DNA from: Eledone cirrhosa
Taxonomy: Eukaryota
DNA: 64,000 nucleotides
Reading direction: 5' to 3'
Assembly: GCA_964016885.1 (NCBI GenBank)
Contig: OZ024746.1
Span: 88,908,001 to 88,972,000, forward strand
Shown here piece after piece: positions 41,771 through 57,310 of this stretch. Every line of letters starts with the position of its first letter. Position 1 is the stretch's first letter. The translations under genes were made by a program, and so were the position numbers. The notes beneath the pieces were generated by a model. The model worked only from the letters and a program-made list of their open reading frames with translations. It had not been told where the DNA came from and did not search any database.

Positions 41771-41968
41771 ATATAGGATCAAGTAAGACCCCGACGGCTG
41801 AGCTCAAGCCGTTTCGACGGCTAATTCTGGACTGAATTAGCCGTCGAAACGGCTTGAGCTCAGCCGTCGGGGTCTTACTTGTTCCTATTACCCACTCTAC
41901 TATCCTAAGTATTGAGTACTTTGGTGCGTTATGGTCCACCTGGTTCCTTACCACATTTCCTTCGTTAT
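41771..41968. mobile_element. Family B hairpin element (young)
   Basis: Near-perfect arms GACCCCGACGGCTGAGCTCAAGCCGTTTCGACGGCTAATTC and reverse complement, inside (TA)n. Confidence 0.9.
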
Positions 41969-42532
41969 ATATATATATATATATATATATAAACATACAC
42001 TCATATGTGTGCGTATGTTTGTGTGTATGTGATTTCGCATATATACACTGAGAATGTCACGCCTCTTGCACTACATCACCAGTTAAGCTGCATCAAAATA
42101 TTTTTATTTGATTGCTATTAGCTATATAATCCGCTGAACCATAGACGTGCACAGTATAAAATAGTAGCTTATTCACTGGAGTTGAACAGAATAATAAAAA
42201 TAAACATTCGTTTAGGTTGAATAGAGTATGCACGTTAGTTGAGGTAGAATATAAAAAACAGAAACATAGAAAAAATAACCAGAAATAGATGTTTACTCAC
42301 AGTAATAAATAATATAAATAATAATAATACTTATAACTATAACTACTAATGTATAATAAAAAACATTTTGAATAAATTTTTAAAAGTGTTTTGCATTTTG
42401 GTCAGCTTCCTTATCTCAACAAAATTTTGGGTTATTTTGATATCATTTATATTAGAAAAATATTTTCGTTCCGTCCATTAATACTGCTTGGTGTTTTTGA
42501 TTATGTGGTAAAATTTTATAAATATGAAATAC

Positions 42533-42740
42533 GTGAATTTGTATATCTGTCGATATCCGGTATTTTTATAAATAAACATTTTGAAATCTTTCAGCTATGA
42601 ATTTGAAAAATGATTGCGTGGCGCAATCTAGTGTGTTCTAAAAGAAGCTAGATAGTGCGATCTTTTTCAAATTCATAACAGAAAGCTTTAAAAATCTTTA
42701 TTTATAAATTTACCGTATATAGACATATCTATAAATTCAA
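42533..42740. repeat. Degenerate inverted repeat, about 90-bp arms
   Basis: TTATAAATAAACATTTTGAAATCTTTCAGCTATGAATTTGAAAAA versus TTTTTCAAATTCATAACAGAAAGCTTTAAAAATCTTTATTTATAA. Confidence 0.8.
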
Positions 42741-42919
42741 CTCTTTCATATCTATAAATTCGAGATGTATAAATTTAAGTTAGAGTTGATGCTCTTATTA
42801 TATTTTAGAAATAATTGTGTGTTCTCTTTATCGAAAACTAAAGTATTATTTTAGAATTTTAATCAATCTCTCAATGTTGGAAAACAGGTTGAATTTTACG
42901 GTGAATGTTTTTGTGAGAT

Positions 42920-43215
42920 TCAAAATTTAACCAGTCTAACAACCTCGTTCAAATTCTGACGAAACGGCCTTTCACCGATAAAACAATTTTACCAGTAATA
43001 ATTGTTTCTTCTTTTGGCACAAGGCCAGCAATTATTCCAGTATACTACATGTACTTAATTTTATCGACCACGTAAGGACGAAAGGCAAAGATAACCTCGG
43101 CAGGATTTGAACTCAGATCATAAAGGGCCGTAACTCTATGATCTAAGTTGAAATCACGCCGAGGCTAAATTTGCCTTTCATCCTTACGGGGTCGATAAAA
43201 TAAAGTACCAGTAAT
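42920..43215. mobile_element. Cluster of three SINE pieces in opposite orientations
   Basis: Plus-strand decayed piece 42920-42995, minus-strand piece 42998-43140, plus-strand piece 43146-43215. Confidence 0.85.
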
Positions 43216-55269: not shown

Positions 55270-55360
55270 TGCCTTTCATCCTTACGGGGTCGATACAATA
55301 AAGTACCAGTAATGTACTGGTGTATTTGCTGGCCTTGTACCTAAAGTAGAAACAATTATA
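55270..55360 (+). mobile_element. SINE 3' half
   Basis: GCCTTTCATCCTTACGGGGTCGAT..GTAGAAACAATT. Confidence 0.9.
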
Positions 55361-55413
55361 TATATATATATATTAAAATACAAATATTAATAAAATAGAT
55401 GTTCTTTTTATGA

Positions 55414-55476
55414 ATTACATTTTATTAGACATATTTCGGACGTACAATAGTACGTCCTGATCAGACAAAATATAAT
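55414..55476 (-). ncRNA. Type I hammerhead with a G8C core change
   Basis: ATTATATTTTGT CTGATCA GGACGTAC TATT GTACGTCC GAAA TATGTC TA ATAAAATGTAAT. Stem I is 12 bp and stem II is a perfect 8 bp. Confidence 0.8.
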
Positions 55477-55479
55477 GAT

Positions 55480-57310
55480 ATATGACATACCCTGAGAGGT
55501 TAAATGGTTAAGATTTAATCAAGGTAGTGATTAACCTAAGAGAAAGTTTAACATTTATACCCTAATAATGAGAAAATTCGAAATCGTAATAAATTCAATA
55601 GAGAATGTGTGAGTAAGAAAAACGTTGCTTAATGTTAGTTATAGAGATTTTAAAATGTATGATACTACAATTTATCACGGAAAGCGGTCAATGAAAGCCG
55701 TTGAGATAATATATATAGAGAGAGGGAATATATGTAGAAGGAGATTTTCCGAAAGTTAAACGGTTAAGTTTGAAAATATTTAGTTTATGCTATTTTAGGG
55801 TGAAGAATCAAGATTTTATGGGGTTTTTTTTTTAAATTGCAGGTTATTTATTAGTTTTGTGAATACAATAAATGTTTTAACATTTTTAAACTTTGAAATT
55901 TTATGATGATAACTTTTAAAGGACTTAGCTGTCCAGCGGAAAATAAAGTTTACACTGTCGAATATAATTCTACCGGAGATATTCATTGTCAACATATATA
56001 GTATGTAAATCTTATGAAGTTTTTATTGTTATAAATATTAAAATAACTAATATGTATATATACATATACATATCTATATATATATATATATAGGAACCAG
56101 TACGACCCCGACAGCTGAGCTCAAGCCGTTTCGACGGCTAATTCTGGACTAATTTAGTCCAGAATTAGCCGTCGAAACGGCTTGAGCTCAGCTGTCGGGG
56201 TCTTACTGGTTCCTATTACCCACTCTACTACCTTAAGTATTGAGTACTTTGGTGCGTTATGGTCCACCTGGTTCCTTACCACATTTCCTTCGTTATATAT
56301 ATATATATATATATTAATGTGCCTGCATGCTTTAGGTAAATGATAACGAAAATAAAAATAAGGTAATAGATTTAGGCATGCTAAAGTTAAATATATACGT
56401 ATATATAAAAGGGTGTATATGCATTGATTATTCATAGTTCAAAATAAATGAAAATCAATAAATTTAACTGTAAATTATGTATAGAATGATACATGGAGGT
56501 TTATATGGATATAAATTAGGTATTATTGATACAGTATACTTTAGGTAAATGATAACAGTTATAAAATATATATATATATATAAGAAAAGCAAGGAAAGTT
56601 TACACTGTTGAATATTTTCCTAAATATAAAGTTTACCGAAGATAATGAATTGTCAACTTATGGTATGTAAATGTTATGAAGTACTTATTTTTAGAAATAT
56701 TTAATTAACGGTTATGTATATAGATATGTATTAATGAGCCATTATATTTTAGGTAAATGATAACGAAAAAATATAATAGATTGAGGCATGCAAAATTAAA
56801 TATATACCAATATAACAAGATGTAAATGCATTAATTATTCATAGTTCGAAATAAATAATAATCAAAAACACATGAAACATTCACAATTAAAAATAAGTTC
56901 CATAAAAATGTATGGGTTGAATATTAAACTAAAATTTAAACCTTAGATAGGAAGATAACGATAGTGAAATAAAGAAATAATGGTATGGATCAAAATTAAG
57001 AATTATAATATTATGTTATGTATATCAATGTTCGGGCATGTTATTGAACATGTGATTTTCATTCAAGCGTTATTTCTCCTATAGATATATTATAAGATAA
57101 TGCCATTAATGTTTTTACCTGTTGATTATAACGTCTGACAACCAAGTTTTTAATGGTTAAGTGTTTCACTCTCTTTTTTTCTCGTTTTGTGGGAGGCTAA
57201 GAATTACAATTGTATTTTAATATTAATAACTCTGGAAAATTATTTTTCATAGAGTGCTTCCAATCTACTGTAAAACGCATCATTTGATATACTCATTGAA
57301 TATTGTTTAA
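55480..57310 (-). mobile_element. Probable long AT-rich PLE 3' region with an internal about 650-bp-spaced duplication
   Basis: Ends in the HHR at 55414. 55945-56060 resembles 56595-56725 and 56320-56460 resembles 56735-56865. It is interrupted by a family B insertion. Confidence 0.5.
56090..56295. mobile_element. Family B hairpin element (young, about 62-bp near-perfect arms)
   Basis: TAGGAACCAGTACGACCCCGACAGCTGAGCTCAAGCCGTTTCGACGGCTAATTCTGGACTA, a short loop, then the reverse complement. Confidence 0.92.

What the first reader, a model, noticed from the sequence alone, without database searches (positions are those of the whole stretch)
41771..56295. Family B: short (TA)n-inserted hairpin elements built from half a hammerhead
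Seen: eight copies (11661, 21681, 40541, 41771, 47002, 49646, 56090, 59588) carry a version of GTC-GAAA-CGGCT-TGAGCTC-AGCCG-TC. This reads as stem II 3' strand, GAAA, stem III with a palindromic loop and a GUC site. None keeps CUGANGA. In five copies an inverted copy of the downstream sequence replaces it, and the turn falls about 10-35 nt upstream of GAAA with a different loop each time. Inference: the cDNA folds back on stem II and self-primes, so each insertion loses the catalytic half and becomes a palindrome. Alternatively, the half is a substrate for a ribozyme acting in trans.
Basis: partly seen in the sequence, partly recalled or inferred. Interest (0 to 1): 0.72.

Follow-up and report, generated by a model that had tools for sequence, protein, structure and literature searches.

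The report
Penelope stubs copied from both strands
These hairpin repeats are very short insertions of a known kind of animal jumping gene (a Hydra-clade Penelope-like element) whose long copies carry the missing half of the ribozyme; their junctions suggest that both cut DNA strands likely copy the same RNA at once and that the ribozyme likely cuts that RNA in living cells.

Summary
The eight copies are real; the genome holds tens of thousands more. They are the end region of an intact, recently active Hydra-clade Penelope-like element (3.55-kb tandem unit, RT plus GIY-YIG). Long copies carry the ribozyme's 5' half in cis, as the precedented U3:A8 variant (UUGANAA), not CUGANGA. So this is neither a half-ribozyme element nor a MITE. 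The mirrored layout, one-sided tail and (TA)n targeting are published. Fold-back on stem II is not supported: 62 of 67 arm pairs join one short-ended to one tail-ended arm, either arm reaches farther equally often (18 vs 18), and some pairs do not overlap. The best model is that both strands of a (TA)n break prime reverse transcription at two fixed RNA sites and the cDNAs are joined head to head. Most B1 arms stop 8-19 nt before the GAAA block (inferred RNA 5' end). A minority class starts both arms exactly at the predicted ribozyme cut (16 of 36 scored), half as often in a lineage with a mismatched core. This scan reported the same element class and similar ideas on other DNA before.

The parts
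11663..11732 (-). B2 short-ended arm (ends at the +45 site in TA)
11738..11869 (+). B2 tail-ended arm, decayed, tail internally deleted
21681..21740 (-). B2 short-ended arm, 5' end about -14
21749..21871 (+). B2 tail-ended arm, 5' end about +5, ends at +125 in TA
40537..40549 (-). 13-nt remnant matching the tail (probable second arm)
   Evidence: read from the sequence
40554..40604 (+). B2 short-ended arm from about -5
41773..41833 (-). B1 short-ended arm (+45 back to -15)
41834..41968 (+). B1 tail-ended arm (-9 to +125)
41843..41873 (+). Hammerhead 3' half: C11.1, GAAA (41846-41849), stem III with palindromic loop, GUC; predicted cut between 41868 and 41869; stem I 3' strand
   Evidence: the cut site is predicted from hammerhead topology
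41894..41919 (+). Tail hairpin 1 (RCTC...GAGY), 6 nt past the short end; a twin lies 4 nt past the long end in full-length units
   Evidence: positions +51 and +129 in L147
47001..47135 (-). B1-type tail-ended arm (-10 to +125); followed by 7 nt (47136-47142) that match the short end
49647..49777 (-). B2 tail-ended arm, no partner arm seen
56090..56152 (-). B1 short-ended arm (+45 back to -17)
56152..56296 (+). B1 tail-ended arm (-19 to +125)
59589..59696 (-). B2 tail-side arm, cut at about +92
59703..59733 (+). B2 second arm, ends inside the stem III loop in TA

Best explanation
Family B is the pLTR/leader region of an autonomous Hydra-clade Penelope-like retrotransposon, and its short palindromic copies likely arise when both strands of a cut (TA)n target prime reverse transcription on one element RNA at two fixed internal sites and the two cDNAs are joined head to head. 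Numbering takes the G of GTCGAAAC as 0. SHOWN: the identity of the element; a cis U3:A8 hammerhead (core at -58, predicted cut after +25); two 3' ends, +45 and +125, each ending in TAT and lying 4-6 nt before a small hairpin; one end of each kind per insertion; both arms from one subfamily; arm 5' ends clustered at -8 to -19, with a minor class at +26. INFERRED: (1) the GIY-YIG endonuclease cuts both strands of (TA)n, and each 3' end anneals by TAT at one site. (2) Both cDNAs run to the RNA's 5' end, the downstream one displacing the upstream one, or stalling at it in non-overlapping pairs. (3) That 5' end is most often a transcription start inside loop II, so the RNA and its copies lack the ribozyme's 5' half. 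Less often it is the ribozyme's cleavage product (+26) or a long read-through transcript. (4) The cDNA ends are joined by microhomology, short templated patches or 1-5 added bases, and each then templates the other's second strand.
For: Long copies run upstream through a ~1.1-kb UTR into an RT/GIY-YIG frame. 16 loci show pLTR-ORF-pLTR units of 3,553 bp with a 784-aa open frame; 19 ORFs have median 99.0% pairwise identity. Hydra motifs DKT, RWR, CxCx5C, YRDDG, CxxC and CxH are present, and there is only one Cys inside the GIY-YIG core (against PMC8557442 section 11). Of 67 head-to-head pairs, 62 are short+long, 5 have a damaged end, and none is short-short or long-long. Among the 62, the short-ended arm reaches farther 5' in 18, the long-ended in 18, and 26 are within 3 nt; in 5 the arms do not overlap. 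27 of 28 typed pairs share the subfamily 7-mer (shuffled mean 10.5, max 20). Of 128 B1 arms, 97 end at -8 to -19, 14 at -1 to -7, 0 at -20 to -29, and 17 run past -30. The wall base (-19) is the A of a TCAKTY match, and the D. virilis promoter lies in the pLTR. 437 insertions turn near the cut site (control 8). In 36 scored sites, 39 of 72 arms start at +26 (8 at +25, 5 at +27, 9 at +28), both arms in 16. This class is 7.3 per 1,000 arms in the CCTACT lineage against 14.5 in the CTTACT lineages. 18 of 38 distinct long CTACTCG copies have a C3/A8 mismatch against 0 of 36 of the others. An in vitro PLE extends both strands from two internal start sites (PMC11167929).
Against: No RNA end was measured, so the transcription start and in vivo cleavage are read from DNA junctions only. 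Later deletions in palindrome centres could produce some asymmetric or non-overlapping pairs. In B2 the limit is softer: most arms end at -9 to -17, but some end at -24 to -33, and B2 lacks the TCAKTY. In B1 the peak is at -14/-15, only 4 arms end at -19, and one partly deleted arm outside the 128 reaches -20 (L098). The MTE match is 7 of 10 (p about 0.02, post hoc) and there is no DPE match. +26 lies 2 nt from the base of stem III, so an RT stall followed by trimming is not excluded. The lineage contrast compares two groups only, used non-random long copies, and may reflect age. The hammerhead fold is the predicted minimum but is not more stable than shuffles (z -0.67), with one compensatory pair of 16. 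In Anolis, ribozyme mutants still inserted in vitro and no reads ended at the cut.
Confidence: 0.68

Rival explanations
1. Two-strand priming holds, but the arms stop for other reasons. The -8 to -19 cluster comes from an RT roadblock or an RNA cut in the loop II sub-hairpin, and the +26 class from a stall at the base of stem III or trimming of a DNA cruciform, not from a promoter or the ribozyme.
For: In both subfamilies the upper limit falls in the loop of a small hairpin capping stem II (B1 fold; B2 read from the sequence), at pyrimidine-A steps. C25 is the first unpaired base after stem III. B2 has no sharp wall.
Against: A stall at stem III predicts +25, but +26 is seen 39 times and +25 8 times. 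The young TTACTGG subfamily, part of the group with more cut-site hairpins, has the weaker stem III (G-U pair). Stops after the RT has already passed a stem are not what stalling predicts (inference).
Confidence: 0.2
2. One cDNA folds back and primes itself (first reader; PMC3846280 proposes self-priming, on an antisense template), with later deletions blurring the centre.
For: The arms share subfamily markers in 27 of 28 pairs, as copying one arm from the other predicts. It is the published interpretation of junction palindromes.
Against: It predicts that the tail-ended arm always contains the other arm. Observed 18 vs 18, with the short-ended arm farther by more than 10 nt in 11 pairs against 5, and 5 non-overlapping pairs. 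16 hairpins have two complete arms 1-5 nt apart, several only 1 nt, too tight for a primer loop. It does not explain why the copied arm stops at the fixed +45 site that also ends long, ORF-bearing arms.
Confidence: 0.09
3. The half-hammerhead is kept as a substrate for a ribozyme half supplied in trans.
For: An RNA starting at -15 to -19 would hold exactly the substrate strands, and long transcripts hold the other half. This is compatible with the best model.
Against: The complete ribozyme exists in cis in thousands of copies. The short copies decay freely. There is no direct evidence.
Confidence: 0.02
4. A DNA-transposon MITE with fixed terminal inverted repeats and TA duplications.
For: The copies are short, palindromic, flanked by TA and present in very high numbers.
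Against: The arms have unequal fixed ends and variable centres, and they are continuous with an RT-coding retroelement.
Confidence: 0.01

Closest known systems
Hydra clade of C-terminal EN+ Penelope-like elements (Craig et al. 2021, PMC8557442; includes Hydra-1_Obim of Octopus bimaculoides)
   Same: Single RT-GIY-YIG ORF, DKT, RW(K/R), CxCx5C linker, no CCHH, (TA)n targets, pLTR hammerhead, inverted 5'-truncated copy, tail on one end.
   Different: The unit is 3.55 kb (described families generally under 3 kb) and the tail is 80 nt (30-40 typical of PLEs). The core is U3:A8, with 6-bp stem III and a ~30-nt loop II; all Hydra ribozymes in its File S2 have CUGANGA. It is a different family from Hydra-1_Obim, whose ribozyme differs; the proteins were compared by motif only.
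U3-A8 minimal hammerheads of Schistosoma Cercyon PLEs (Cervera and de la Pena 2014, PMC4209133)
   Same: Same core covariation; that paper also notes dual ribozymes on opposite strands 100-700 bp apart.
   Different: Here stem III is long enough for a predicted monomer fold. The paper offers no in vivo evidence of cleavage; here a genomic class starts at the predicted cut.
Poseidon of Anolis carolinensis in vitro (Frangieh et al. 2024, PMC11167929)
   Same: Both target strands are cut and extended, and two internal RT start sites define the tail.
   Different: There the start sites are said to lack homology to the target and lie in the ORF. Here both end in TAT matching (TA)n and lie upstream of the first ATG (+216), and each insertion uses one site of each kind.
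Adineta vaga Penelope elements with junction palindromes (Arkhipova et al. 2013, PMC3846280)
   Same: Head-to-head inverted pLTRs, tail on one of them, Inr-like motif in the pLTR.
   Different: That paper explains them by self-priming on an antisense template; the arm geometry here argues against self-priming.
LINE-1 twin priming
   Same: Both target strands prime on one RNA and give an inversion joined by microhomology.
   Different: L1's second primer lands at variable sites and the arms do not overlap. Here both sites are fixed and the arms usually overlap into a palindrome.
Animal non-LTR retrozymes (PMC7229834; bioRxiv 10.64898/2026.07.22.740005)
   Same: Short non-coding repeats with type I hammerhead sequence, related to PLE pLTRs.
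   Different: Retrozymes are tandem monomers with whole ribozymes. These are stubs of an autonomous element with no sign of a replicating short unit (the centres differ from copy to copy).

Membership tests
EN+ Penelope-like elements | Single ORF with RT and GIY-YIG endonuclease | tested here: met
   784-aa open frame with YRDDG and VIY...YIG. Pfam gave no hit; the assignment rests on motifs and on Craig et al.'s alignments.
EN+ Penelope-like elements | Partial-tandem or tandem organisation forming pLTRs | tested here: met
   pLTR-ORF-pLTR in the 16 loci fetched (the upstream pLTR is incomplete in L155 and L162); multi-unit array in L159/L160
EN+ Penelope-like elements | Inverted 5'-truncated copy at the 5' end and a tail on one end only | tested here: met
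   62 of 67 pairs short+long, none alike; the tail is 80 nt
Hydra clade | DKG changed to DKT; RWK motif; CxCX5C linker; CCHH absent; CxxC and CxH near the end | tested here: met
   SDKTG, RLRWR (R for K), CNCPDRSIC, one Cys in the GIY-YIG core, CNLC, CKH
Hydra clade | Insertion into (TA)n | tested here: met
   TA follows both ends in the large majority of loci
Hydra clade | Canonical hammerhead (CUGANGA) | tested here: not met
   Core is UUGANAA (77 of 100 listed have U3 by eye, 98 have A8, 0 have C3+G8). A variant of the ribozyme, not a lack of it.
Hydra clade | Falls inside the clade in an RT tree | not tested
   Reference proteins were seen only in a paper supplement and were not brought into a tree
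Type I hammerhead ribozyme | Three stems around the conserved core, 3:8 pair, G10.1-C11.1, GAAA, NUH | tested here: met
   Minimum-energy and consensus folds give stems I-III; N7 varies G/U/A; conserved in B1 and B2 with a G-C to A-U change in stem II
Type I hammerhead ribozyme | Self-cleavage | not testable with these tools
   Indirect only: both arms start at +26 in 16 of 36 scored sites
MITE (DNA transposon) | Fixed equal TIRs, constant centre, no RT link | tested here: not met
Non-LTR retrozyme | Tandem short monomers, each with a whole hammerhead | tested here: not met
   Short copies are head-to-head and lack the 5' half; the tandems are 3.55-kb coding units

The most novel reading that the evidence does not exclude
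The junctions record the PLE insertion cycle. A dimeric RT primes both target strands at two hairpin-marked sites on one RNA, and the two cDNAs template each other's second strand. The RNA's 5' end is set by the pLTR promoter (giving the mass of half-ribozyme stubs) or by in vivo cleavage of a U3:A8 hammerhead. This would replace the self-priming model and give genome-scale evidence that PLE hammerheads cut their RNA in animals.
Probability: 0.45. Interest if true: 0.75.

Novelty: new member of a known kind. Interest (0 to 1): 0.5.

Why it matters
How Penelope-like elements, the closest mobile relatives of telomerase, form their inverted ends, make a second strand and use their ribozyme is stated as open in the papers read. 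This family gives tens of thousands of natural products, intact near-identical source ORFs and a natural core-mismatch variant. The competing models therefore predict specific RNA ends (-15 to -19, +26) and start sites (+45, +125) that can be tested directly. As an element, it is ordinary for its class.

Tried and rejected
Rfam on the window gave only TA-repeat miRNA artefacts among the 150 of 172 rows shown and no hammerhead hit. The inverted-repeat finder was swamped by (TA)n. Pfam, NCBIfam and PDB gave nothing useful for the ORF; 2,216 homologues, almost all unnamed, best 42-54% identical. No RNA holder was listed for the element; this is no evidence on expression. Four contig runs of unrecorded kind showed no splice-like joint and cannot show RNA ends. 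Splicing at TTTAG (-14) was rejected: arms keep bases up to -19 and carry no shared upstream exon. A lariat branch point at -19 was considered and not tested. My first count of 8 arms at -19 was inflated by chance matches to the partner arm; the strict recount gives 4. I first took the clade for Nematis; the supplement showed Hydra. A replicating short (SINE-like) master is unlikely because the centres differ, though a few junction types recur. Literature searches for this mechanism in PLEs found nothing beyond the papers cited; subscription journals and Repbase were not searchable, and bioRxiv supplements were closed.

Full report
Observation. All eight copies are present. They form two subfamilies, B1 and B2. 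None has a catalytic 5' half nearby. The window lies in a 3.0-Gb genome; the host was not identified. Exact 28-mers occur 23,805 times (B1) and 2,549 times (B2); two 24-mers together count 38,500 B1 arms. Positions below take the G of GTCGAAAC as 0.

What the element is. Of the 30 best copies fetched, 2 continued upstream into shared sequence. Searching with that sequence gave 30 loci, all of which continue into family B. Further upstream lie about 1.1 kb of UTR and an RT/GIY-YIG frame. A protein search scored 150 of 40,113 candidates and showed many open frames of about 790 codons. 16 fetched loci have pLTR-ORF-pLTR units of 3,553 bp, some in arrays, most with an inverted partial copy upstream. 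19 ORFs have median 99.0% ungapped identity, so the family spread recently. The protein has the motifs that Craig et al. give for the Hydra clade (section 11 read whole; supplement parts 1-2 and searches). No tree was built. Inverted truncated copies, a one-sided tail and (TA)n targets are described there as typical (passages).

The ribozyme. Long copies carry ACCCC-YUGANAA-G...CGGCUA upstream. The pattern has 5,187 exact matches; of the 100 listed, 98 have A8, 77 have U3 (by eye), N7 is G, U or A, and none has C3 with G8. B2 long copies have the same UUGAUAA core with a different loop II. The natural sequence folds into the three hammerhead stems as its minimum, though no more stably than shuffles (z -0.67). 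The consensus of 10 copies gives the same stems, with one compensatory pair between B1 and B2. U3-A8 is already reported in Schistosoma PLEs (PMC4209133 Results and Discussion read).

Arm geometry. I mapped 70 loci (the first 30 listed B1 matches, plus 40 regions covering all but the last 2 of the other 70 listed) and the window on one natural copy. There are two 3' ends, +45 and +125. Both end in TAT against (TA)n, and each lies 4-6 nt before a similar small hairpin (the hairpins were a lead from earlier notes). Of 67 head-to-head pairs, 62 are short+long, 5 have one damaged end, and none pairs like with like. The short-ended arm reaches farther 5' in 18, the long-ended in 18, and 26 are within 3 nt (BLAST ends, a few nt uncertain). 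In 5 pairs the long arm starts downstream of +45, two of them at +49 and +52. 27 of 28 typed pairs share the subfamily marker (shuffled mean 10.5, max 20). Fold-back needs the tail-ended arm to contain the other, so it is not supported unless deletions altered many centres. PMC3846280 favours self-priming (passages). PMC11167929 shows extension of both strands and two internal start sites in vitro (parts 1-2 of 4). Two-strand priming on one RNA fits all these counts (inference; the L1 parallel is recalled).

Where arms stop. Of 128 B1 arms that hold the 3' half, 97 end at -8 to -19 (peak -14/-15), 14 at -1 to -7, none at -20 to -29, and 17 run on (strict recount). Arms ending downstream of 0 are excluded by that selection. 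9,806 hairpins of this class match one tight pattern. The -19 base is the A of a TCAKTY match, one of three in the unit; the MTE match is 7 of 10 and there is no DPE. The D. virilis promoter is in the pLTR (passages). An mRNA starting there would carry both start sites near its 5' end, so priming on them would give stubs without the catalytic half. This is inferred. B2 has a softer limit, with some arms to -24 to -33, and a roadblock or loop cut remains possible.

The cut-site class. 437 insertions turn near the predicted cut (control 8). I fetched 40 of the 49 distinct sites listed. Four with no spacer are ambiguous and were set aside. In the other 36, 39 of 72 arms start at +26, 8 at +25, 5 at +27, 9 at +28, 1 at +24 and 10 at +16 to +22. 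Both arms start at +26 in 16 sites, separated by 1-5 bases. 34 of the 40 were scored short+long; the other 6 look the same or damaged by eye. The class is half as frequent in the CCTACT lineage (122 per 16,787 arms) as in the CTTACT lineages (315 per 21,713, obtained as 437 minus 122; p 7e-11). About half of the sampled long copies of the CCTACT lineage have C3 opposite A8 (18 of 38, against 0 of 36; non-random sample). This fits cleavage in vivo, but it is a two-group comparison, and +26 is 2 nt from the base of stem III. The class is about 4% the size of the main one (437 against 9,806, different patterns), so most copies come from uncut RNA.

Novelty and verdict. The element is a new family in a described clade, and its layout and core variant are published. 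Searches found no paper that makes the two-strand or cut-site argument for PLEs. A 2026 octopus repeat paper lists Penelope elements without these features (passages). The retrozyme papers were seen in part only. Earlier notes of this scan reached the same identity and similar ideas in this and other genomes, and several judged cut-site starts to be chance in other families; they are not independent support. Interest 0.5.

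Noticed in passing
window 2328-4344, 12556-14210, 33505-34297: Three decayed Hydra-type PLE remnants, 33-51% identical to the family B protein; other families.
   Followed up: partly
window 37809-38840: 343-codon frame of a different GIY-YIG PLE type, similar by eye to the YVDD-type frames in L027, L122 and L126; clade not determined.
   Followed up: no
window 35150-35939, 39604-40365, 42991-43215, 45798-45998, 51546-52136, 55270-55356, 58409-58599, 60583-60772: A second dispersed repeat of about 185 bp with ten or more copies.
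   Followed up: no
window 1943-2355, 15025-15423, 20677-21554, 42515-42758, 50206-50697, 55004-55231, 61124-61376: Further long palindromes, probably two-armed insertions of other families.
   Followed up: no
L027 (reverse strand, about 310-1625): A family B tail-ended arm is joined through a small hairpin to an inverted ORF of a different PLE; a chimera or template switch between families.
   Followed up: partly
L003, L014, L100, L104, L177, L189 junctions: Long T or A runs at the arm junction, and short locally templated patches in others (L006, L009, L024, L163).
   Followed up: no
L107, L149, L152, L154, L156: Copies lie right beside one another, apparently inserted into the (TA)n flank of an earlier copy.
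   Followed up: no
L147:3707-3907: The leader, tail included, is in frame and open for 67 codons before the first ATG; no intron was identified.
   Followed up: partly
L155:2-2374: An unrelated 790-codon open frame beside the element, probably another retroelement.
   Followed up: no
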